From NCBI GenBank assembly GCA_029260965.1, contig JAJDCG010000002.1, forward strand, positions 60,523 to 124,522: DNA of 64,000 nt, written 5' to 3'. Positions 7,250-39,188 of the stretch are shown here, piece after piece; positions within the stretch are counted from its first letter, which is position 1, and every line of letters starts with the position of its first letter. Position numbers and translations under genes: made by a program. This DNA comes from Candidatus Levyibacteriota bacterium. Lineage in GTDB: Bacteria; Patescibacteriota; Microgenomatia; Levybacterales; UBA12049. The notes beneath the pieces are model-generated. The model had not been told where the DNA came from and did no database searches. It saw only the letters and a list, made by a program, of their open reading frames with translations.

Positions 7250-7381
7250 TTATTACGTCGTCAATCAGAAAACTTCGTAAGATTACTTGCAGTTCATTTT
7301 ATATTCGTTATTATCCATAGGTTCGAAGCCGTCTAAACCCTGGTGTTAGAGTTTCTTTATAGAATCTGATATCATAACGAT

Positions 7382-7714
7382 GTGGGTATTGAACATCGTT
7401 CAGATAAAGGTCAGATTGGGAAGATGCTAAGGCCAGATAGGAATAGAATTAATTGGGCAGGCGCTGATCCTGAACTGTGGGAGGTCAAGAAAGGTTGGGA
7501 TAGAGTTTCTGAATTAAAAACTGGAGGGAGATACGAGTTTCGGGCTTCAGAAATGGTTTCTTATACAAATGCTTTTGGTGCGAATTTGCTAGTAGCTTTA
7601 GACATTATGGAAGATTTTCATGATACAGAAACATTAATTTTGGAACTGGGTGAAAGAGTGGCCTTTGCTATGAATATTGAATATCTAGATACAGCTATGA
7701 ATGATTTGGAATGA
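7382..7714 (+). CDS. Hypothetical protein (start uncertain: GTG at 7382 or ATG at 7424)
   Basis: The ORF has no recognisable motifs. It sits in the accessory-like block. Confidence 0.4.
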   Translation: MGIEHRSDKGQIGKMLRPDRNRINWAGADPELWEVKKGWDRVSELKTGGRYEFRASEMVSYTNAFGANLLVALDIMEDFHDTETLILELGERVAFAMNIEYLDTAMNDLE

Positions 7715-7740
7715 TGATAGTATTTAGTTTTCTTAATTTT

Positions 7741-7777
7741 CTGTTATACTCTTCAAGTATGAATCTATCAATCAGGA
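7741..7777 (+). repeat. Copy A of a repeated extended -10 promoter-like element followed by ATGAATCTATCAATC
   Basis: 'ctgttatactcttcaagtATGAATCTATCAATCAGGA'. TGtTATACT is an extended -10, and an ATG lies 8 nt downstream. It matches copies B (9792) and C (11207). Confidence 0.5.
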
Positions 7778-7866
7778 TGGCCAGAACACAACCCGACATT
7801 TTGTGCCATTTTCAAATAAAAATAATACTCCCAAAATCCACTTGACTTCACGTTATTTTAAATAAA

Positions 7867-8394
7867 CTAATCACTATCTAGTGCGGCTTGAAGCAAGGCT
7901 TTGTTGTACGAGTTTGTTTTTTTAATTTCATCAATAGTTGTGGGATCCAGCATTGCAACAACAACACGTAGCTCTAAATCGGCATTATATCTGTCAATGT
8001 TACTAATCGCTAAAGAAATATCTGTCTCCGTGGCTTCTTTAGTGTCTAAAATCTTATATGACTCTCCCAAAGCTATTGCATCATTCCCGATCCTCTTAAG
8101 TTGAGATTTACCTTCCTCGCAATTAAGAGCATAAGACTCCCATTCGTATTCGTAATTAACACAGTCTATATCGTTTGCAGTCGCAACCATATCTTGTCCT
8201 TCAGAAATAAAGTCTGAACCCAACTCATCAAACTGCGCTAAATCTTCCTCTTTAATCTCGTTGACATATTGTTCTGCCTCTTGTTGCGTAAGTCCCGTAT
8301 TTTCTGCAAAATTTTTAACTACATCAGCTTGACTGAATGTGAATACAGACCCTCCGATAACTAAAGTTATAATTGTCCCTATAGTTCTGTTCAT
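7867..8394 (-). CDS. Hypothetical secreted acidic protein (signal peptide)
   Basis: N-terminal 'MNRTIGTIITLVIGGSVFTFSQA' resembles a signal peptide. The rest is D/E-rich. Confidence 0.5.
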   Translation of the reverse strand: MNRTIGTIITLVIGGSVFTFSQADVVKNFAENTGLTQQEAEQYVNEIKEEDLAQFDELGSDFISEGQDMVATANDIDCVNYEYEWESYALNCEEGKSQLKRIGNDAIALGESYKILDTKEATETDISLAISNIDRYNADLELRVVVAMLDPTTIDEIKKTNSYNKALLQAALDSD

Positions 8395-28601: not shown

Positions 28602-29900
28602 ATGTTAAAATTTGAATTATTACAAAGAATGTTTGCTAAGATAAAAAATTTTTTATATTTTCCTGTTGCATCTTATTTCCGTTTTTTTGCTGCGATTCGG
28701 CTCAAGAAGTGGAATCCTAAAATTATTGTCATAACAGGTTCTAATGGTAAGACTACACTTCTTCATATGGTTGAGGCACAAATTGGAGAAAAAGCTAGAT
28801 ATTCGCATCATGCAAACAGTAGCTTTGGTATACCTTTTGATATTTTGGACTTACATCGTACAACACTTATAAAAACAGAATGGATAAAATTGTTTTTGTA
28901 TGCTCCTTTGCATGTGTTTCATAAAATCCCAAATGAAAAAATTTATGTTGTTGAGGCAGATTGTGATAGGCCAGGCGAGGGGAAGTTTTTGGCTGAGTTT
29001 TTACATCCCGATGTAACTCTCTGGGTTAGCAGTTCAAAAACACATGCAATGAATTTTGACAGTTTGGTAAGAGCTGGAAAATTTGAGACTGTTGAGGATG
29101 CCGTTGCCTATGAATTTGGATATTTTCTAGAATATTGTAAAGTGCTTTCAGTAATTGATGGCAACTCTCCCTTGATGAAGAAACAAGTTGTCAGATCAGA
29201 AGCTGAGATAAGGGCAGTAAAAAGCACTTCGCTTAAAAATTACGCAGTTGATAAATTTGGTACAAGTTTTACTATAGATGATAAAAAGTATTTATTTGGG
29301 GCATTGTTGCCTATAGAATCATTTACGTCAATAGCTATGACAAAAATGCTTACAGAATATCTGGATTTAAAATTTGATAGATCTTTTTCAAAATTTTTAA
29401 TGCCTCCTGGTAGGGGGTCTGTATTTACTGGAATAAAAGATATAACTATTGTTGATAGTTGTTACAATGCAAATCTTTCATCAATGAAGGCAATTTTGGA
29501 GATGTATTCTAAGATAAAAAGTGATAAAAAATGGGCAGTAATAGGTGACATGTTGGAGCTGGGGGAATTAGAGCGTGAGGAGCATGAAAAGTTGGCAGAT
29601 ATTCTCGTTGACTTGAAAATTGAGCGTTTAGTATTTCTCGGTCCAAGAGTTTTAAGATACACGATGCCAAAACTCAAGACTCACCAAGGCAAGGAAATAA
29701 TTATCGATGGATTTGTCAATCCTCCTGAGGTTCTAGAATATTTGCAGTCAAATCTAAAAGGTGAGGAAGTAATCCTTTTCAAAGGTGCGAGATTCATGGA
29801 AGGAATAATTGAGAATCTTTTGAAGAATAAGGATGATTCAAATAAATTATCAAGGAGGGAAAAAATATGGGAAAAAAGAAGAAAGAAGTGGGGACTATGA
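28602..29900 (+). CDS. Mur ligase-family protein (MurF-like UDP-MurNAc-peptide ligase)
   Basis: 'KIIVITGSNGKTTLLHMV' is the Mur ligase P-loop. 'HANSSFGIPFDILDL' resembles the MurF middle-domain motif. ATGA overlap with the next gene. Confidence 0.75.
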   Translation: MLKFELLQRMFAKIKNFLYFPVASYFRFFAAIRLKKWNPKIIVITGSNGKTTLLHMVEAQIGEKARYSHHANSSFGIPFDILDLHRTTLIKTEWIKLFLYAPLHVFHKIPNEKIYVVEADCDRPGEGKFLAEFLHPDVTLWVSSSKTHAMNFDSLVRAGKFETVEDAVAYEFGYFLEYCKVLSVIDGNSPLMKKQVVRSEAEIRAVKSTSLKNYAVDKFGTSFTIDDKKYLFGALLPIESFTSIAMTKMLTEYLDLKFDRSFSKFLMPPGRGSVFTGIKDITIVDSCYNANLSSMKAILEMYSKIKSDKKWAVIGDMLELGELEREEHEKLADILVDLKIERLVFLGPRVLRYTMPKLKTHQGKEIIIDGFVNPPEVLEYLQSNLKGEEVILFKGARFMEGIIENLLKNKDDSNKLSRREKIWEKRRKKWGL

Positions 29901-30583
29901 AGAAGAAAGTTTACATATTGCATGGATGGGCTTATTCGACTGAAAAATGGAAACCTTTTTTAATTGATTTGAAAGAAAAAGGGTTTGAACCAGTAATGTT
30001 AAAAATTCCAGGTCTTACTGCGCCCCTAAATGAAGTTTGGACAATTGAAAATTACGTTGAATGGTTAAGGGCAAAGATAGGTTCCCAAAAAAACATAATA
30101 CTTTTGGGACACTCAAACGGTGGAAGAATTGCAATTGCATTTGTAGCAAAATATCCATCTGTGGCATCTCAGCTCATACTTATTGACAGTGCGGGAATTT
30201 ATCACAATGGATTGCGGATTAGAATTAAGCGTTTGTTTTTTGGCTCGATAGCAAAGCTAGGAAAAATTTTTTTTAATTCTGAAAAAATTAGAAAACTTTT
30301 ATATAAGTTTGCCAGAGAACATGATTATGAAAAAGCTGATCCTATTGTTAGGCAAACAATGGTTAATCTGATTCGTACAGATCTTTCTCGAACTCTAAAG
30401 CAAGTTAGTACACAGACTCTTATTATCTGGGGTGAAGAAGATAGGGTAACTCCAGTTGTAGATGCTAAATTGATGAGTAGGGAAATTGTTAACTCACAAC
30501 TGAGGATAATTGCCAAGGCAAGACATTCTCCAATGTTTACACACCCGAATCAAGTTGTTGAAATAATCAGAGAAAATTTATGA
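29897..30583 (+). CDS. Alpha/beta-fold hydrolase (esterase-like)
   Basis: 'ILLGHSNGGRIAIAF' is a GxSxG elbow. The start was chosen at ATG 29897 (4-nt overlap with the upstream stop, SD-like GGGGA). Confidence 0.65.
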   Translation: MKKKVYILHGWAYSTEKWKPFLIDLKEKGFEPVMLKIPGLTAPLNEVWTIENYVEWLRAKIGSQKNIILLGHSNGGRIAIAFVAKYPSVASQLILIDSAGIYHNGLRIRIKRLFFGSIAKLGKIFFNSEKIRKLLYKFAREHDYEKADPIVRQTMVNLIRTDLSRTLKQVSTQTLIIWGEEDRVTPVVDAKLMSREIVNSQLRIIAKARHSPMFTHPNQVVEIIRENL

Positions 30584-31791
30584 GTATATTTAATTCGTTG
30601 GGTTCAAATTATAATTTTAGTTATGTAGTAAAGACATTGTTTGCGGGAGATGGGGAGGAGTATTTTTTGCGTTTAAAGAAATTACTTCAGGAAAAGTATG
30701 GGGGGAATAAGGTTATTCTCACCCATAAGGGAAGAGATGCATTGAGAATTGTTCTTAGAGCAATTGGGTTACGGGGTAAGGCTGTGATAGGGATTTGTGG
30801 TTTTACGTGTTTTGCGGTATATGAAGCAATAGAGAAAGAAGGATATAAGGTAAAGTATCTTGATATTGATAGAGATAGTTTAAATTTTTCATACAATACC
30901 CTAGAAAAAGCAGTTAATCAAAATTCAGATTTAAAAGTAGTTATTATACAAAATACATTAGGTTTTACTTGTGAGATTGAGAAGATATCAAAGTTTTGTA
31001 AATCCAGGGGAATAATTCTTGTAGAAGATTTGGCCCACTCGATAGGAGCAAAATACAATGATGGTAGGGAGGTTGGTACGGTAGGGGATTTTACAATTTT
31101 ATCTTTTAGTCAGGATAAAATGATAGATGGTATTTCAGGGGGAGCATTAATAAGACATAATCCCAAGTTTAGAATTGAAAATTTTGAATTTACAGATATA
31201 GAGGTGGAAGTTCAGAAAAAAGATAGATTTTATCCGCTTTATACATACATGATAAGAAAAACCTATGACTTGTATTTCGGGAGAGTAATCCATTTTTTGC
31301 TTAAAAAAATAAATTTTTTATCCACCCCGATGATCAGTTCAGAAAAAATAGGGAAAATTGCTCTCTGGTACTGTCAAAATATTTATAATGAATTTTTGGA
31401 TTTAACACAAAATCTTAAACATCGTCGAAATATTGCATCTATTTATGCAAAAAATCTAGACAGTAATCTTATCAATAGGGAAATAGTTTCAAAAATTAAT
31501 AATTCATCTAATTTGAGATTTCCTATATTCATTAATAATAGGGAGGACGTTATTAATTATTTAAAAAAATCAAAAATCTTCGTGTCAGACATCTGGTACG
31601 ATTCGCCTATTGCACCAAGGAAATATTTATCTAAAACTGATTACAAAAAAGGTACTTGCAAAAATGCGGAATATGTTTCTGATAAAATATTGAATCTACC
31701 AACGCATAGAAATATCACCGAAAGAGATGCTATACGAATAGTAGAGAGAGTAAATAAATTTTTTGAAGATTTCAGTCATCAAAGTGAATAA
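30580..31791 (+). CDS. DegT/DnrJ/EryC1/StrS-family PLP-dependent aminotransferase-like protein
   Basis: 'IGICGFTCFAVYEAI...LVEDLAHSIGAKYNDGREVGTVGDFTILSFSQDKMI' fits the fold-type I sugar aminotransferase layout with the conserved SF..K lysine. Confidence 0.7.
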   Translation: MSIFNSLGSNYNFSYVVKTLFAGDGEEYFLRLKKLLQEKYGGNKVILTHKGRDALRIVLRAIGLRGKAVIGICGFTCFAVYEAIEKEGYKVKYLDIDRDSLNFSYNTLEKAVNQNSDLKVVIIQNTLGFTCEIEKISKFCKSRGIILVEDLAHSIGAKYNDGREVGTVGDFTILSFSQDKMIDGISGGALIRHNPKFRIENFEFTDIEVEVQKKDRFYPLYTYMIRKTYDLYFGRVIHFLLKKINFLSTPMISSEKIGKIALWYCQNIYNEFLDLTQNLKHRRNIASIYAKNLDSNLINREIVSKINNSSNLRFPIFINNREDVINYLKKSKIFVSDIWYDSPIAPRKYLSKTDYKKGTCKNAEYVSDKILNLPTHRNITERDAIRIVERVNKFFEDFSHQSE

Positions 31792-31795
31792 TTTT

Positions 31796-32815
31796 ATGAT
31801 AAATCTAAAGATAGTTGATAAAAAAAACGATTGGGAAAAATTTATTATCAAACATTCTGATGCAAATTTTTTGCAAAGTTGGTATTGGGGTGAATTTCAT
31901 GAAAGCCTCGGTAAAAAAATTTTTAGATACGGATTTTATCAGGAAAATGAGCTAATTGGCGTAATGCTATCTATAGTGGAAGATGCAAAAAGGGGAAGGT
32001 ATCTTACTGTACCTGGAGGGCCGATTATTGATTGGGCTGATAAAGAGCTTGCAAAAGTATCATTTGAGATAATGCGAAAGATCGCTCGAGAGAACAGTTG
32101 TGATTTTGTGCGTGTCCGTCCGCAGCTTTTGAAAAATACTTTTTCAATAAAGCTATTTAAAAATAATAATTTTCGTCCTGCACCAATGTATCTTCATGCA
32201 GAGCTAACTTCTCAATTAGATATCACCAAATCAGAAGAGGAACTTTTGTCAGCGATGAGGAAAAACACCCGTTATGAAATAAGGAAAGCAGAAAAATTGG
32301 GAATTGAGATTTTGAGATCAGAAAGTAAGGAAAAAATAAAAGATTTTTACAATTTACAGATAGAAACTGCCAAAAGACAGCGTTTTGTTCCATTTAGTTA
32401 TCATTTTTTTAAAAAGCAATTTGAAATATTTTTTGCAGCAGATAGTGCGATTTTATACACTGCAAAATTGGGTAATAAGATTCTTTCTGAGGCCTTTGTT
32501 ATTTTTTATGGATCTGAGGCAGTCTATCATTACGGTGCTAGCACAAAAGACGGAAGGCGCTATCCTGGTGCATACCTCATACAATGGGAAGCGATAAAAG
32601 AGGCAAAAAAGAGGGGAATGATACGCTATAATTTTTGGGGCATATCGCCTAATGAGGAAAAGAATCATAGATTTTCAGGAATATCTCTTTTCAAAAGAGG
32701 CTTCGGTGGAATAGACGTTCAGTATTTACCAGCTCATGATTTAGTAATAGATCCATTTAAGTATTCTATAAATTATGTAATTGAAAAGTTGAGAAGATTC
32801 GTTAGAAAAGTCTGA
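31796..32815 (+). CDS. FemAB-family peptidyltransferase (peptidoglycan interpeptide bridge formation)
   Basis: 'NFLQSWYWGEFHESLG' is the typical FemAB N-terminal motif. An acyltransferase-like core follows. The start was moved to ATG 31796. Confidence 0.7.
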   Translation: MINLKIVDKKNDWEKFIIKHSDANFLQSWYWGEFHESLGKKIFRYGFYQENELIGVMLSIVEDAKRGRYLTVPGGPIIDWADKELAKVSFEIMRKIARENSCDFVRVRPQLLKNTFSIKLFKNNNFRPAPMYLHAELTSQLDITKSEEELLSAMRKNTRYEIRKAEKLGIEILRSESKEKIKDFYNLQIETAKRQRFVPFSYHFFKKQFEIFFAADSAILYTAKLGNKILSEAFVIFYGSEAVYHYGASTKDGRRYPGAYLIQWEAIKEAKKRGMIRYNFWGISPNEEKNHRFSGISLFKRGFGGIDVQYLPAHDLVIDPFKYSINYVIEKLRRFVRKV

Positions 32816-33394: not shown

Positions 33395-34666
33395 TTAGAC
33401 ATCGACTGATAAATCTTCCTGCTCGTCTGTTTCTGGGTTTATCAAAAATCCTTTCAAATCAAGCCTACCCACAATCATCGGGTAGGTTAGGTGAGACCTG
33501 CTCACAAGAGACACAATGGTGTTAATCCTTTTACCAGCAATTATAAAAGAAAGTTTTGCAGTTTTTCGGTAGGCCTTGCCGCTTGCAGAGCGAACAAAAA
33601 CTTTTTGTTTTACTGTCTCAAGTCCCAGTTCCTTGGCAAGTTTTTTGTCAATTGATGACCTATATGCTCCTGTGTCAAGTTTGGCATTAATTTCTTTCAC
33701 AATGTCATTACTTTTTAGCGTAACAGGATATATAACTGGCAATATCTTGGGACTTGATGAAACTTTTTCTGAAAATTTTTCAGCAAAAAGCGTCTTTGCC
33801 AGTTCAACCCCTCTTTTGGGTGATGCTATGTTCATATCCTCTATTCTTTCAAGTCTGGTGCGAAGAGATTGTAGATTGGCATTTTGGATCTCGAGTCCTG
33901 GACGGGAGTTGACCTCTAAAACAAGCGGTCCTTTGTGGGCATCAATTACAATATCAACTCCTGCAAATCCAAGCTTTATCGCCTCCTGCGTGCGAGAAGC
34001 AAGTAATAATGTGTCGCTCCAGTTAGGAAGCTTTATGCCAGCAGTTTTCTTCTTTGTAAAAGGAAATTTATATATCAATTTTGAGTTATTGGTGGCAGAG
34101 GTAGTAATTCCTGTTGAGATATCTATTCCTGTTGCAAGTGCTCCAAGGTGAATATTGGCTTTTCCTCCTGATTGTTGAGTAGGTATTCGAAGCATTGCCA
34201 TGATTGGAACATGCTTGAATACTATAATTCTTATGTCTGTAAGTCCCATGGGTGTAATTTTTTTAAAAAATGGGTGCTGTACGAGTTTGTCTTCTATAAA
34301 AGCAGTATCAGGTAGGTATTGTAGAGAAAAAGCACCATCTAGAATATCAAAGATATGTGATTCAAGTTTTGTTTTATCATAGACTTCTCCACTCAAGTCA
34401 TGTCCGATGTTTTTTTTCCAATGTTTAATTATTATTATTCCAGATCCTCCGTAACCTCTTGCAGGTTTTATAGCAAATCCGCTTTCAGGAAGTGAATCCC
34501 AGTTAAAACTTCTAACCTCATCTCTATTTCTGAAGCTAGCTAAAAGCGTTGGAGCTGGGATGCCGTTTTCAACTAATATTTTTTTTGTCTTCAATTTATC
34601 ATCAGCGTTTTTTTTGGCTGAAGACTTGTTGTATGGACGGATGTATAGGAAGTTCCGGGCATTCAT
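33395..34666 (-). CDS. Fusion protein: RimK-like alpha-L-glutamate-ligase-related ATP-grasp domain + C-terminal retropepsin-like (DTGA) aspartyl protease domain
   Basis: ATP-grasp motifs 'GFAIKPARGYGGSGIIIIKHW' and 'VDIVIDAHKGPLVLEVNSRPGLEIQ', with N-terminal 'GMNARNFLYIRPYN'. The C-terminal ~140 aa 'KLDTGAYRSSIDKKLAKELGL...' resemble the RimK-associated 'Zn_protease'/retropepsin family. The start was set at Met26 to avoid overlap with the 7TM gene. Confidence 0.7.
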   Translation of the reverse strand: MNARNFLYIRPYNKSSAKKNADDKLKTKKILVENGIPAPTLLASFRNRDEVRSFNWDSLPESGFAIKPARGYGGSGIIIIKHWKKNIGHDLSGEVYDKTKLESHIFDILDGAFSLQYLPDTAFIEDKLVQHPFFKKITPMGLTDIRIIVFKHVPIMAMLRIPTQQSGGKANIHLGALATGIDISTGITTSATNNSKLIYKFPFTKKKTAGIKLPNWSDTLLLASRTQEAIKLGFAGVDIVIDAHKGPLVLEVNSRPGLEIQNANLQSLRTRLERIEDMNIASPKRGVELAKTLFAEKFSEKVSSSPKILPVIYPVTLKSNDIVKEINAKLDTGAYRSSIDKKLAKELGLETVKQKVFVRSASGKAYRKTAKLSFIIAGKRINTIVSLVSRSHLTYPMIVGRLDLKGFLINPETDEQEDLSVDV

Positions 34667-34679
34667 CCCGAGAACAGTT

Positions 34680-35585
34680 TTACTTACTGCCATGTTTGAA
34701 AATTGGTTGGAATCTAAGATACTCTGTAATTCGTAATCCAAAGTATCTTCCGATCATCACATTTATAGGAACTAAAAGTAATATAAATTCAGGGTACAGC
34801 AGTATAAAGGTTCTCAGTTGTTCCCATGAGAGTAAGAGAAATCCAAGTATACCAAGTACCAAGGTTATAACTGTTGTCTGAATTGTTTCTTCCAGTTCAC
34901 GTTCTAAGAAGAGAGTTACTATTCGATCGCTCAGAAGTATCAGGAGTAAAACTGGAAATATAGATAGGTTTCGTATGTCAATCAATCCATAGATAGAGCT
35001 GATGGTTAATGCAGTCAGAAGTAGGATAGCTACCATGAGCATGGATAGTGAAGTTTTGGGCATCTGCATTATTCTTACTCTCTTGAGAAGGACACGTGAC
35101 ATGAATGACGCAATGAGGATGGTGAGCAACATAATAAACCCTGGTGTAACGCCCGTTGCTAAAAGTGTAATTGATAGTGCTATTGGAACTAAAAGACCAA
35201 TGCCTGAAAGTCCGACTATGTATCGAAAGGCAACAACTATTGTAGCAAGAACAGGAAGTAGCAATATGAGTATAATTGTATTTGTGGGGACTCCTGCTCG
35301 TGCTGCGTATTGAACTGCAAAAGGTGCAAAATTTGTTGCAGTTAATTTTTCGACCTTTCTTTTTTCAAAAAGCGAAGTCAAGACTTCTTTTTTTTCTGTG
35401 TCTTCCTCTGGTTGTGTTACATCTTTAGCATCTGTGGTGTTTTTTTTGTTCGCAGATTGCGTAGCTTCTTGTGCAGCTTGGCTTGCTGATGTCTCTGGGT
35501 CAAGTGATTGCGCGTGTATGACCGAAGTGGTCGAAAGTATGATTATGCTAAAAATTATAGAAATAAAGATTTTCATAACCATCAT
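34680..35585 (-). CDS. 7TM membrane protein (7TM_transglut-like, lacking a transglutaminase domain)
   Basis: A signal peptide, a low-complexity linker and seven predicted TM helices. It lies directly upstream of the ATP-grasp/retropepsin gene on the same strand. Confidence 0.6.
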   Translation of the reverse strand: MMVMKIFISIIFSIIILSTTSVIHAQSLDPETSASQAAQEATQSANKKNTTDAKDVTQPEEDTEKKEVLTSLFEKRKVEKLTATNFAPFAVQYAARAGVPTNTIILILLLPVLATIVVAFRYIVGLSGIGLLVPIALSITLLATGVTPGFIMLLTILIASFMSRVLLKRVRIMQMPKTSLSMLMVAILLLTALTISSIYGLIDIRNLSIFPVLLLILLSDRIVTLFLERELEETIQTTVITLVLGILGFLLLSWEQLRTFILLYPEFILLLVPINVMIGRYFGLRITEYLRFQPIFKHGSK

Positions 35586-35642
35586 TTTAATACAAAATTC
35601 ATTTTGAGTATAGTGCGAGATTGATATTTATGTTTTCAAATG

Positions 35643-35725
35643 TACCGAGGGAGGGACTCGAACCCTCAAGGCCTTGCGACCAATAGTTTTTGAGACTATC
35701 GCGTATACCATTCCGCCACCCCGGT
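35643..35725 (-). tRNA. tRNA-Leu (anticodon CAA)
   Basis: Folded by hand. Acceptor stem ACCGGGG/CCTCGGT, anticodon stem ATAGT/ACTAT with loop CTCAAAA (U33, CAA, A37), a long variable arm, and T-arm GAGGG-TTCGAGT-CCCTC. Confidence 0.85.
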
Positions 35726-35763
35726 GCTTGAATTTGTGACCTCACTATTATATACTTGATCGT

Positions 35764-36729
35764 ATGACTATTCAACAAATATATGATTTGGCACTAGAAA
35801 TGGGGATAGATTCAGATCCTCGTGGAAAAACAGGAGTAGATAAGTTTTTAAAAAGAATAAAGAAAGAATATGAAGACTTATCAAAAGAAAAAAAGAAATA
35901 TTTTGATAGTGAATCACTCACAAATCCATACGGAGATACGAGAATATTTGTAGGTGATCCCAAAATTGAAGTAAAAAAAGTATTAGCAGGAATAGATGCA
36001 GATGCTGCAGAGGTGATACTTGCAGATAGGCTTAACCAGAAAGGACTAGGAATTGATTTGGTGATTGGCCATCATCCAGTTGGTATTGGGTTGGTGGGTC
36101 TTCATGAAGTGATGGATCTTCAGGTTGATTCTTTTGCTAACGAGGGGGTGCCAATAAACGTCATGCATACGCTGATGATGCAACGACAGGATGATGTTAA
36201 AAGAAAGATTCATCCTACAAACCATAATCAAATAGTTGACACAGCAAGACTCCTTGAAATACCCCTTATGAACCTTCATACAGCATGGGATAATTTGGGA
36301 GATGAATTTATGAAAAAATACATTGCTAAAAAAACATATCATACAGTTGGCGATGTATTGGATCACATGATGGATCTTCCTGAATTTCAGGAAGCTGCAA
36401 GAGGTAAAAATGAGCCTGCTATTGTTTCGGGAACTCCAAATACGAGAGTCGGTAAGGTATCTGTTATGTTTACTGGTGGAACAAACCCATCAAAAGAGAT
36501 TTATATTGAACTTGCAAAGGCTGGGGTTGGAACTTTAATAGATATGCATATTCCAGAGGAGGCATTGAAAGAATTAAAGAAAAGACATATTAATGTAATT
36601 ACTGCGGGACATATGGCATCTGATTCAATTGGTGCTAATTTGTTTTTAGATGAGCTGGAGTCAAGAGGTATAGAGGTTATACCTTGTTCTGGACTCATAC
36701 GCGTCAATAGAAAGGTTCAGAAAAAATGA
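35764..36729 (+). CDS. Nif3-family dinuclear metal-centre protein
   Basis: 'LVIGHHPVGIGL' and C-terminal 'VITAGHMASDS' are His-containing metal-site motifs of the NIF3/YqfO family. Confidence 0.75.
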   Translation: MTIQQIYDLALEMGIDSDPRGKTGVDKFLKRIKKEYEDLSKEKKKYFDSESLTNPYGDTRIFVGDPKIEVKKVLAGIDADAAEVILADRLNQKGLGIDLVIGHHPVGIGLVGLHEVMDLQVDSFANEGVPINVMHTLMMQRQDDVKRKIHPTNHNQIVDTARLLEIPLMNLHTAWDNLGDEFMKKYIAKKTYHTVGDVLDHMMDLPEFQEAARGKNEPAIVSGTPNTRVGKVSVMFTGGTNPSKEIYIELAKAGVGTLIDMHIPEEALKELKKRHINVITAGHMASDSIGANLFLDELESRGIEVIPCSGLIRVNRKVQKK

Positions 36730-38570: not shown

Positions 38571-39188
38571 ATGGAAATTTTACTTATATTAATTTCATTT
38601 TTGATATTTTTGTACACATTGTTTAATTTAGTGAAAGACGATTATGTGTGTATTAGAAAAAATATATCACCAGAAAATGTTTTTGATATCGCTTTTGTAG
38701 TTTTTATTTTCAATTTTTTAATAGGTTCAGTGATTGAATTTTCATTTCCCATTCTTTTCTTGATTACTATTAGCTTGTTGTATTTGATGACAAAGTATAA
38801 AAAATTTCCAATTGGAAGAATTTTTGATTTTTTTATTTTCTCCTTTTTATTTTCTCTACCGTTTAGTTTTTTTCTAAGTGCTATTTTATATAGTGGGAGT
38901 ATTATCTTCTATTTGGTTCAGGCAGCATTTTATTTAATTCTATTAATTATATTTATAAAGTTTTTGAAGAATAAACTTATGAGTAGGAAAATAAGAGAGG
39001 GGACAATATCTATAGTGTTTATTGTTATTTTTTCTCTGGAGTCTTTTGTAGCGTATTTTTTCCAGAAAGGCGCAAGTGTGTCATCCTTTTTTCAAAGAGA
39101 TAGCTTGCTATGGATTTTGCTGATCAGCTTAAGTATAGTGCTTCTGGTTGTCCATTGGATTCTTAGAGTAAAAACAGATAAACGTTAA
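38571..39188 (+). CDS. Phe-rich multi-pass membrane protein of unknown function
   Basis: Hydrophobic ORF with 5-6 TM helices. Confidence 0.45.
   Translation: MEILLILISFLIFLYTLFNLVKDDYVCIRKNISPENVFDIAFVVFIFNFLIGSVIEFSFPILFLITISLLYLMTKYKKFPIGRIFDFFIFSFLFSLPFSFFLSAILYSGSIIFYLVQAAFYLILLIIFIKFLKNKLMSRKIREGTISIVFIVIFSLESFVAYFFQKGASVSSFFQRDSLLWILLISLSIVLLVVHWILRVKTDKR

What the first reader, a model, noticed from the sequence alone, without database searches (positions are those of the whole stretch)
33395..35585. Compact peptide-modification cassette: 7TM protein + fused RimK-like ATP-grasp/retropepsin
Comparative genomics has predicted three components acting together to modify a peptide or protein: a RimK-like alpha-L-glutamate-ligase-related ATP-grasp, a retropepsin-like protease, and a 7TM protein usually fused to an inactive transglutaminase. 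Here they are reduced to two genes. The ATP-grasp and the DTGA retropepsin domain are fused in one polypeptide. The 7TM partner has no transglutaminase-like domain. This two-gene arrangement is unusual and, to my knowledge, biochemically uncharacterised. A tRNA-Leu sits directly upstream.
Basis: partly seen in the sequence, partly recalled or inferred. Interest (0 to 1): 0.62.

Follow-up and report, generated by a model that had tools for sequence, protein, structure and literature searches.

The report
Streamlined two-gene Rlo polyglutamate system
This is the compact two-gene version, widespread in the ultra-small Patescibacteria (CPR), of the recently named Rlo stress-tolerance system, in which a predicted glutamate-chain-building enzyme is fused to the protease predicted to cut such chains and is paired with a membrane protein; it is a real but common variant that could make the system's unknown chemistry easier to study.

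Summary
Two translationally coupled minus-strand genes encode (1) a signal-peptide-bearing 7TM_transglut/RloB-type membrane protein without the transglutaminase-like domain and (2) a 432-aa protein fusing an RloC-type (TIGR02291/ATPgrasp_ST) ATP-grasp ligase to a D-T-G-A retropepsin domain. The system assignment is right, but two claims need correcting. First, the three-gene parent system is no longer uncharacterised. It is RloABC of Pseudomonas (mBio 2025): RloA cleaves stretches of 8 or more Glu, and loss of RloB or RloC suppresses loss of the proteases. Second, the two-gene form is not rare. It is the standard form in Patescibacteria: 52 of the best 80 species-level genome loci, and the 7TM gene is directly upstream in 50 of the 50 loci that include upstream sequence. 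The fused protease keeps the validated polyE-binding residues (K338, D340, R376, R399) but lacks a signal peptide and the disulfide cysteines. It therefore works in the cytoplasm, like RimB with RimK, whereas Pseudomonas RloA and newly seen protease::7TM variants place it outside. A natural RimB-RimK hybrid is known but has the reverse domain order and a different ligase family. Verdict: new variant of a known kind, moderate interest, biochemistry still inferred. The tRNA-Leu adjacency is incidental.

The parts
34680..35585 (-). Gene 1: RloB-like 7TM membrane protein without the transglutaminase domain (301 aa from ATG 35585; NCBI's copy starts at ATG 35576, 298 aa)
   Evidence: PF14402 7TM_transglut 2.6e-22; RloB model NF052267 matched only at positions 312-507 of 508. 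At least 120 homologs of about 300 aa carry PF14402 only. AF2 model pLDDT 82.1.
35508..35585 (-). Signal peptide of the 7TM protein (res 1-26), ending in the invariant A25-Q26
   Evidence: Hydrophobic N-terminus; A-Q invariant in 38 homologs; coordinates checked.
35286..35507 (-). Extracytoplasmic N-terminal segment (res 27-100): variable S/T/A/E/K-rich linker, then the conserved DVTxPE ... LFxKR ... N85 motifs. It occupies the position of the transglutaminase-like domain of RloB.
   Evidence: Alignment A2; no Pfam match; low to moderate pLDDT.
34737..35285 (-). Seven-helix membrane core (res 101-283)
   Evidence: Pfam match over res 104-295; AF2 helices. Basic loop 3-4 (5 K/R) and basic C-tail fit N-out/C-in topology. 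No significant structural relative in the PDB.
34683..34760 (-). Conserved cytoplasmic C-terminal tail (res 276-301; G279-R-Y-F-G-L-R285, E288-Y, F292), the candidate docking site for the ligase
   Evidence: Invariant columns in A2. In the all-in-one relative P0317 this end is joined directly to the ligase N-terminus.
34680..34693 (-). 14-nt overlap between the end of gene 1 (…AAG TAA) and the ATG of gene 2, indicating translational coupling
   Evidence: Sequence TTCAAACATGGCAGTAAGTAA. The 7TM ORF abuts or overlaps the fusion ORF in 50 of 50 fused loci that include upstream sequence.
33395..34693 (-). Gene 2: bifunctional ligase::protease fusion protein (432 aa plus stop)
   Evidence: AF2 model pLDDT 85.8 with two well-folded domains joined by a lower-confidence linker.
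33779..34666 (-). RloC-type ATP-grasp ligase domain (res 10-305). The invariant K76 / G-rich loop and D247, E260-x-N262 Mg/ATP motif are intact.
   Evidence: TIGR02291 1.8e-80; ATPgrasp_ST 3.5e-63. Foldseek best hits are RimK 5zk6/5zct/7qys, E about 1e-10. The motif aligns with RimK. About 40% identity to proteobacterial RloC.
33728..33778 (-). Inter-domain linker (res 306-322). The helix just before it corresponds to the C-terminal helix where unfused RloC proteins end.
   Evidence: pLDDT dip at res 301-320, with 310-313 below 50; RloC C-termini 'ERVxFAxxxF'.
33434..33727 (-). Minimal retropepsin-like protease domain (res 323-420) with no signal peptide and no cysteines. D-T-G-A is at 33665-33676; K338, R376 and R399 are invariant.
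   Evidence: PF13650 3.4e-7, NF052264 RloA3 3e-7. Best PDB sequence hits are the RloA structures 9g59/9g58. Residue mapping to RloA K46/D48/R114/R137.
33398..33433 (-). Disordered acidic C-terminal tail (ETDEQEDLSVDV), a family-wide feature of the fused proteins
   Evidence: In 114 homologs: median 20 aa, 39% D/E versus 10% elsewhere, median net charge -7, 46 of 114 end in Glu; absent from unfused RloC. pLDDT below 50.
35642..35725 (-). tRNA-Leu(CAA), upstream on the same strand. Possibly co-transcribed, but not part of the conserved module.
   Evidence: ARAGORN. No tRNA immediately upstream of the 7TM gene in any of 50 fused loci scanned.
35747..35775 (-). Best sigma-70-like promoter match (TTGAAT-17-TATAAT), upstream of the tRNA. 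No such site lies between the tRNA and gene 1.
   Evidence: Weak evidence: the number of sites in the region is not above the shuffled expectation.

Best explanation
This is the Patescibacteria (CPR) form of the Rlo system, reduced to a self-contained two-gene operon. Gene 1 makes a membrane protein whose N-terminus is outside and whose conserved, basic C-terminal tail is in the cytoplasm. Gene 2 makes a cytoplasmic enzyme with two opposing activities in one chain. One is an RloC-type ATP-grasp ligase, predicted by homology to RimK and by its partner's specificity to polymerise L-glutamate into alpha-linked acidic chains, either free or on an unknown acceptor. The other is a retropepsin-type endopeptidase predicted to cut such polyglutamate chains. 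Proposed working: the fusion protein dimerises through its protease domain, as retropepsins must, and docks on the cytoplasmic face of the 7TM protein. The ligase builds the acidic chain at the membrane, and the 7TM protein passes or presents it across the membrane. The tethered protease limits chain length or clears product. This is the same make-and-trim logic shown biochemically for RimK with RimB, where the protease also stimulates the ligase. Unlike Pseudomonas RloABC, trimming here happens on the cytoplasmic side. That is plausibly an adaptation to a cell without a periplasm, which would also explain loss of the periplasmic transglutaminase-like domain. Shown here: domain identities, intact catalytic and polyE-binding residues, operon coupling, conservation, topology. 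Inferred: the amino acid used, the nature of the product or acceptor, the role of the 7TM protein, and the reason for the fusion.
For: Domain identities. The ligase groups with RloC rather than RimK: TIGR02291 scores 270 bits against 63 bits for TIGR00768; about 40% identity to proteobacterial RloC; the fused clade is sister to the RloC clade in a distance tree. The protease keeps K338/D340/R376/R399, equivalent to RloA K46/D48/R114/R137; the latter two were required for polyE cleavage and complementation (PMC12239564). There is no signal peptide or Cys in the fused protease, whereas periplasmic RloA has both. Coupling of the 7TM gene to the fusion gene: 14-nt overlap, adjacency in 50/50 fused loci with upstream sequence, and no other conserved neighbour. 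Natural protease::7TM::ligase and protease::7TM fusions tie the three modules together physically and place the ligase at the 7TM C-terminus. Pseudomonas genetics: loss of RloB or RloC suppresses loss of the proteases, so the ligase and 7TM protein make what the protease removes. RimB binds RimK, raises its activity fourfold and stimulates poly-alpha-Glu synthesis, and a natural RimB-RimK hybrid is proteolytically active.
Against: No RloC-family ligase has a demonstrated product, so glutamate specificity is inferred. The TIGR02291 score is below NCBI's equivalog cut-off (270 vs 314 bits). The 7TM core has no structural relative, so an export role is a guess. The closest relatives of the protease domain in other architectures sit outside the membrane. 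A cytoplasmic location here therefore means either that product exists on both sides or that the role differs. A ligase and a protease for the same polymer in one chain is a potential futile cycle and needs regulation that I cannot identify; the acidic tail is a candidate but is unexplained. About half of the fused CPR loci add one or two RimK-like ligases, which hints that the product may be more complex than homopolymeric Glu in those lineages.
Confidence: 0.5

Rival explanations
1. Cytoplasmic protein polyglutamylation, as with RimK/RimB. The ligase adds and the protease removes Glu tails on a cytoplasmic protein such as ribosomal protein S6, and the 7TM protein only regulates or localises the enzyme.
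For: The protease is cytoplasmic and fused to the ligase, the topology of RimB-RimK and of the RimBK hybrid. RimK is the nearest solved structure. RloA cleaves polyglutamylated RpsF in vitro.
Against: The ligase belongs to the RloC clade, not RimK. It is invariably coupled to a 7TM gene. Related architectures put the protease outside the cell membrane. No acidic-tailed candidate substrate lies in the window. Some CPR loci carry a separate true RimK-family gene next to the fusion, which suggests distinct roles.
Confidence: 0.15
2. Glutamate/polyglutamate osmolyte buffer. The 7TM protein senses membrane or osmotic state and switches the fused enzyme between polymerising free glutamate, which lowers osmotic activity, and hydrolysing it back. 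Nothing is exported.
For: Rlo mutants have a hypo-osmotic phenotype, and the authors raise glutamate-polyglutamate homeostasis as a possibility. Both opposing activities sit in the cytoplasm here. The disordered acidic tail could act as a regulatory pseudo-substrate.
Against: This does not explain why the protease is extracytoplasmic in Pseudomonas and in the protease::7TM variants. There is no sensor-type domain and no structural similarity to known mechanosensors.
Confidence: 0.15
3. Cell-envelope polymer or peptidoglycan-linked modification. The ligase adds amino acids to a lipid- or sugar-linked envelope precursor that the 7TM protein handles, in line with the Pfam name 'sugar-transfer associated ATP-grasp'.
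For: The Pfam family name. Pseudomonas mutants have cell-shape and beta-lactam phenotypes. The window has Mur-ligase-like, DegT and FemAB genes next door, and Moran-type loci have a PBP-like gene nearby.
Against: None of the window's neighbours recurs near any other fused locus. The envelope-gene synteny is lineage-specific. The protease's conserved basic groove points to a polyanionic peptide rather than a glycan.
Confidence: 0.1
4. Artefact or decaying locus: the fusion results from a frameshift or mis-assembly joining two genes, or the genes are inactive remnants.
For: None found.
Against: The same architecture occurs in 120 of the best 120 database clusters and in 52 independent genome loci. 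Catalytic residues are invariant and mean column identity is 69%.
Confidence: 0.01

Closest known systems
RloABC operon of Pseudomonas (PA1768-PA1767-PA1766; Lormand et al., mBio 2025, PMC12239564). This is the three-component ATP-grasp / 7TM-transglutaminase / aspartyl-protease system that, to my recollection, was predicted by Iyer et al. 2009 (paper not held).
   Same: The same three protein families are present: an RloC-type ATP-grasp (about 40% identity), an RloB-type 7TM core, and an RloA-type retropepsin with the same catalytic and polyE-binding residues. All are in one operon.
   Different: Two genes instead of three. The protease is fused to the C-terminus of the ligase and is cytoplasmic, with no signal peptide, no disulfide cysteines, and a hairpin of about 25-40 aa missing. 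The 7TM protein lacks the transglutaminase-like ectodomain. Gene order is 7TM then ligase::protease instead of protease, 7TM, ligase. The fusion has an acidic C-terminal tail. The host is CPR rather than Proteobacteria.
RimK-RimB and the natural RimBK hybrid (Desulfotalea psychrophila DP2392; Little et al., JBC 2025, PMC11957791)
   Same: A Glu-polymerising ATP-grasp ligase working with a cytoplasmic polyE-specific retropepsin. In RimBK the two are one polypeptide and the protease part is active. RimB stimulates RimK.
   Different: RimBK has the protease at the N-terminus and a true RimK-family ligase. Here the order is reversed and the ligase is RloC-type, so this is an independent fusion. 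That paper reports no 7TM partner for Rim systems. RimBK is found mainly in Flavobacteriales and Rhodobacterales, not CPR.
Other permutations of the same modules found here: protease::7TM, tandem-protease::7TM, protease::7TM::ligase, ligase::protease::MATCAP
   Same: They carry the same minimal protease domain (35-49% identity to the window's) together with 7TM_transglut and/or ATPgrasp_ST.
   Different: In the 7TM fusions the protease follows a signal peptide or anchor and lies outside the membrane. The MATCAP fusions add a carboxypeptidase-family domain. None of these is in the window.

Membership tests
Rlo system (RloABC) | RloC-type ATP-grasp ligase (TIGR02291 / PF14397) | tested here: met
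   PF14397 3.5e-63 (213.9 bits, cut-off 31.4). TIGR02291 1.8e-80 over model positions 9-313 of 317, but 270 bits is below the equivalog cut-off of 314. Sister to unfused RloC in the tree.
Rlo system (RloABC) | Retropepsin-like protease with catalytic D-T/S-G and a basic polyE-binding groove (RloA K46, R114, R137) | tested here: met
   D340-T-G-A; K338, R376 and R399 are invariant in 39 homologs and align with the RloA residues. RloA3 model 3e-7, far below its cut-off.
Rlo system (RloABC) | The protease is a separate, secreted protein (signal peptide, conserved disulfide) | tested here: not met
   The protease is the C-terminal domain of the cytoplasmic ligase. It has no signal peptide and no Cys.
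Rlo system (RloABC) | 7TM_transglut membrane protein encoded in the same operon | tested here: met
   PF14402 2.6e-22; 14-nt overlap with the fusion gene; adjacency in 50/50 fused loci with upstream sequence.
Rlo system (RloABC) | Inactive transglutaminase ectodomain on the 7TM protein (PF14400) | tested here: not met
   No PF14400 hit. The RloB model is matched only at positions 312-507 of 508. The P. viridiflava reference protein does have it, 5.4e-46.
Rlo system (RloABC) | Role in hypo-osmotic stress tolerance, with rloB/rloC loss suppressing rloA loss | not testable with these tools
   Genetic phenotype known only in P. aeruginosa.
RimK family alpha-L-glutamate ligases | Full-length match to TIGR00768 / PF08443 above the cut-off | tested here: not met
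   TIGR00768 scores 62.9 bits against a cut-off of 143.4. PF08443 matches only res 247-286, the Mg-binding block. RimK is nevertheless the nearest solved fold.
RimBK hybrid enzymes | Protease domain at the N-terminus of a RimK-family ligase | tested here: not met
   The order here is ligase (N) then protease (C), and the ligase is RloC-type.
Clan AA retropepsin-like peptidases (PF13650 / PF05618) | Single-lobe fold of about 100 aa with D-T/S-G-A, active as a homodimer | tested here: inconclusive
   Motif and fold are met: PF13650 31.3 bits against a 24.3 cut-off; beta-rich AF2 domain with pLDDT about 74-89; sequence hits to the RloA structures and Ddi1. Dimerisation could not be tested because only monomer prediction was available.

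The most novel reading that the evidence does not exclude
The ligase::protease fusion and its 7TM partner form a minimal, self-contained machine that synthesises an alpha-linked polyglutamate (or related acidic peptide) at the membrane and exports it to the surface of these ultra-small, host-dependent bacteria. The 7TM_transglut core would then be a previously unrecognised class of peptide-polymer translocase with no structural relative. The acidic tail would act as a built-in primer or pseudo-substrate that gates the two opposing activities.
Probability: 0.15. Interest if true: 0.8.

Novelty: new variant of a known kind. Interest (0 to 1): 0.5.

Why it matters
The product of the RloC ligase, the job of the RloB membrane protein and the physiological substrate of the RloA protease are all still unknown. 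Yet the Pseudomonas system affects osmotic tolerance, biofilm formation and beta-lactam sensitivity. The CPR form offers a simpler experimental handle: one soluble 432-aa protein carrying both enzymatic activities, plus a 300-aa membrane partner stripped of its ectodomain. The contrast between variants with the protease inside (this one) and outside (Pseudomonas, protease::7TM fusions) constrains any model, because the polymer or its acceptor must be reachable from both faces of the membrane. The all-in-one fusion pins the ligase to the cytoplasmic end of the 7TM protein. The finding also extends the known range of the system well beyond Proteobacteria; the 2025 paper reported 96% of RloB hits in that phylum. 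It shows too that a ligase and a polyE-protease have been fused at least twice independently.

Full report
OBSERVATION. The window carries two minus-strand ORFs at 33395-34741 and 34680-35585, and a tRNA-Leu(CAA) at 35642-35725 on the same strand. The downstream ORF was listed from a TTG, but its real start is the ATG at 34693. The 100%-identical database copy is 432 aa, and 38 aligned homologs all start MAVSK/MAISK. That ATG lies inside the last codons of the upstream gene (…CATGGCAGTAAGTAA), giving a 14-nt overlap typical of translational coupling.

The N-terminal 300 residues match ATPgrasp_ST (3.5e-63) and TIGR02291 'alpha-L-glutamate ligase-like' (1.8e-80). The C-terminal 100 residues match Asp_protease_2 above its cut-off and the RloA models weakly. 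D-T-G-A is at residues 340-343. The upstream protein matches 7TM_transglut (2.6e-22), but only the 7TM part of the profile and only positions 312-507 of the 508-position RloB model, so the transglutaminase-like domain is absent.

WHAT IS ALREADY KNOWN. The NCBIfam names led to Lormand et al. (mBio 2025, PMC12239564). The three-gene system is now called RloABC (PA1768-1766). RloA proteases are secreted, disulfide-stapled retropepsin dimers. In vitro they cleave stretches of at least 8 Glu, and K46, R114 and R137 line a basic groove. A triple rloA deletion is lethal in hypo-osmotic medium, and that defect is fully rescued by deleting rloB (7TM plus inactive transglutaminase) or rloC (cytoplasmic ATP-grasp). 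The ligase's product, the 7TM protein's role and the physiological substrate remain unknown.

A second paper (Little et al., JBC 2025, PMC11957791) covers the cytoplasmic paralogue RimB. It trims polyGlu tails and also binds RimK and stimulates poly-alpha-Glu synthesis. The paper describes a natural, proteolytically active 'RimBK' hybrid with the protease at the N-terminus of RimK, found mostly in Flavobacteriales and Rhodobacterales. Neither paper mentions an RloC-type fusion, a 7TM protein without the transglutaminase domain, or CPR bacteria. Further full-text searches also found nothing. The 2009 comparative-genomics paper could not be read.

HOW COMMON IS THE TWO-GENE FORM. It is not rare. 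The best 120 database clusters for the fusion protein are all about 435 aa, and nearly all are annotated with both domains. The few that are named come from Levyibacteriota, Saccharimonadales or 'Patescibacteria group'. The 7TM partner likewise has at least 120 cluster representatives of about 300 aa with PF14402 only, many on contigs of the same lengths as the fusion hits.

I surveyed the best 80 loci with HMMs built from my own alignments. Fifty-two are fused. In all 50 that include upstream sequence, a 7TM gene sits immediately upstream on the same strand. In 48 of these the ORF is only 218-349 aa. In the other two the extra N-terminal domain is PKD, not transglutaminase. The remaining 28 loci show the classical order protease, then a 510-590-aa 7TM protein, then a 320-aa ligase. 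These come from Gammaproteobacteria (including Pseudomonas viridiflava, confirmed by Pfam), Desulfobacterota, Omnitrophota and Phycisphaerae.

Fused loci with odd taxonomic labels ('uncultured Gammaproteobacteria', 'Bdellovibrionales') each have their nearest relative among named CPR loci. A neighbour-joining tree of the ligase domain has no support values and is only indicative. It puts all fused sequences in one clade, sister to all unfused RloC proteins. That fits a single old fusion. The window groups with Levybacteria-type loci. No gene flanking the window's cassette recurs near any other fused locus, and the upstream tRNA is not conserved. The two genes are therefore the whole conserved module.

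ANATOMY OF THE FUSION PROTEIN. AlphaFold2 gives a confident two-domain model (pLDDT 85.8) with a lower-confidence linker (pLDDT dips at residues 301-320) and a disordered tail. The ligase domain's nearest solved structures are the poly-alpha-L-glutamate synthetases RimK (E about 1e-10), followed by cyanophycin synthetase and LysX/ArgX. Its G-x-A-G-V-D-I…E-V-N-x-R-P-G-L block aligns with RimK's, and D247, E260 and N262 are invariant. It is not a RimK-family member by score: TIGR00768 gives 63 bits against a 143-bit cut-off.

The protease domain's best sequence matches in the PDB are the RloA crystal structures 9G59/9G58. I aligned stand-alone RloA proteins from the classical loci with the fused domains. 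The P. viridiflava numbering is offset by exactly one from all nine published P. aeruginosa residues. On that basis RloA K46, D48, R114 and R137 map to K338, D340, R376 and R399, all invariant in 39 fused homologs. The fused domain lacks the signal peptide, both disulfide cysteines and a hairpin of about 25-40 residues.

Every fused protein ends in a non-conserved but strongly acidic tail. In 114 homologs it has a median length of 20 aa, 39% D/E against 10% elsewhere, and a median net charge of -7; 46 of 114 end in Glu. Unfused RloC stops at the helix that becomes the start of the linker and has no such tail. D/E runs are mostly 2-3 long, so the tail is unlikely to be a cleavage substrate. A pseudo-substrate, primer or docking role is possible but untested.

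OTHER PERMUTATIONS. An exhaustive search with the protease domain alone found 487 representative proteins at E<=1e-3. Besides C-terminal fusions like the window's, Pfam shows four further architectures: protease::7TM, tandem-protease::7TM (a built-in dimer), a single chain protease::7TM::ATPgrasp_ST, and ATPgrasp_ST::protease::MATCAP-family carboxypeptidase. All the 7TM-fused versions examined begin with a signal peptide or membrane anchor. Their protease is therefore outside and the ligase inside, as in Pseudomonas.

These fusions are independent evidence that the three modules act together and that the ligase sits at the cytoplasmic C-terminus of the 7TM protein. They also argue against the free 7TM C-terminus being the ligase's acceptor. 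The window's architecture is the one that puts the protease inside. About half of the fused CPR loci, the more distant Moran-, Kerfeld- and Dojkabacteria-type ones, add one or two RimK-like ligase genes downstream. The window and its nearest relatives do not, so it is the minimal form.

MECHANISM. The best-supported reading is a membrane-associated make-and-trim system for an acidic, probably alpha-polyglutamate, peptide. The ligase docks on the 7TM protein and polymerises. The 7TM protein passes or presents the product. The tethered, dimeric protease limits or clears it on the cytoplasmic side, as RimB does for RimK. Loss of the periplasmic ectodomain and relocation of the protease are plausibly adaptations to a cell without a periplasm (inference).

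The domain identities, residues, coupling, conservation and topology are shown. The amino acid used, the product, the export role and the reason for the fusion are inferred. Rivals are listed with their tests: cytoplasmic protein polyglutamylation with the 7TM protein as regulator, a glutamate/polyglutamate osmolyte buffer, and envelope-precursor modification. A scan of the window found no encoded acidic-tailed or polyE substrate. This matches the Pseudomonas conclusion that the substrate is not a genome-encoded polyE protein.

VERDICT. The claims of rarity and of complete lack of characterisation are overstated, and the tRNA is incidental. It is a new variant of a known kind: an independent, reverse-order ligase-protease fusion within the Rlo family, standard in CPR bacteria and, as far as I could search, undescribed. 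Interest is moderate. It would not astonish a specialist, but it offers a simpler system and topological constraints for working out what Rlo systems make.

Noticed in passing
L010, L015, L016, L019, L020, L022-L031, L035, L036, L038-L040, L045, L049 (directly downstream of the fusion gene, e.g. L022:6375-7292 and 7250-8221): About half of the fused CPR loci carry one or two additional ATP-grasp genes of about 290-340 aa (RimK / GSH-S_ATP / YheCD-like by Pfam) right after the fusion on the same strand. In L016 and L019 there is an ORF of about 600 aa, and the L019 ORF also shows a weak DUF3541 match. This suggests a multi-ligase version of the system.
   Followed up: partly
P0317 (657 aa), P0279/P0296/P0310/P0314/P0327, P0252: There are natural protease::7TM fusions, a tandem-protease::7TM protein (a built-in pseudo-dimer) and an all-in-one protease::7TM::ATPgrasp_ST protein. 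All those examined begin with an N-terminal signal peptide or anchor, so the protease is extracytoplasmic. Their source organisms are unknown.
   Followed up: partly
P0282 (798 aa), P0337 (800 aa): These have an ATPgrasp_ST::retropepsin fusion extended by a MATCAP-family (PF08014, tubulin tyrosine carboxypeptidase-like) domain. That combines a ligase, an endopeptidase and a putative carboxypeptidase in one chain, reminiscent of tubulin tail add/remove enzymes.
   Followed up: no
L028:3386-5014 and L034:1036-2703: The 7TM_transglut proteins of a Kerfeldbacteria and a Patescibacteria MAG carry an N-terminal PKD domain in the position where proteobacterial RloB has the inactive transglutaminase.
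   Followed up: partly
L002, L003, L009-L012, L016, L019, L023, L027, L033, L035, L036, L041, L042, L044, L049, L050 (record titles): MAGs titled 'uncultured Gammaproteobacteria / Bdellovibrionales / Pseudomonadales bacterium' (TPA_asm co-assembly bins) carry the CPR-type fused cassette. Their nearest relatives are named CPR loci, at up to 75% identity to Moranbacteria. Their taxonomic labels look unreliable.
   Followed up: partly
window 28602-32815 (+ strand): A run of envelope-type genes converges on the cassette: a protein with only the Mur_ligase_C domain, an alpha/beta hydrolase, a DegT/DnrJ aminotransferase and a FemAB-family peptidyltransferase, followed by Maf. None of these is conserved next to the cassette elsewhere.
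   Followed up: partly
window 38571-39188 (+ strand): A 205-aa, very hydrophobic predicted membrane protein with no Pfam match lies between an MFS transporter and a pseudouridine synthase gene.
   Followed up: no
P0142, P0153, P0163, P0183, P0188 (7TM homologs; alignment A2 columns 1-55); compare window ORF 35599-35778: Several database gene calls for the 7TM protein have long N-terminal extensions. P0188's closely resembles the translation of the window's tRNA-Leu region (…WRNGIRDSLKNYWSQGL…). They appear to be over-extended calls running through an upstream tRNA gene. A tRNA upstream therefore recurs in some close relatives but not across the family.
   Followed up: partly
Moran-type fused loci (e.g. 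L016, L022, L025, L036): There is recurrent lineage-level synteny around the cassette: yebC-like and ruvC upstream (20 and 28 loci), ruvB further upstream (15 loci), and a large PBP-like gene about 2.5 kb downstream (21 loci).
   Followed up: no
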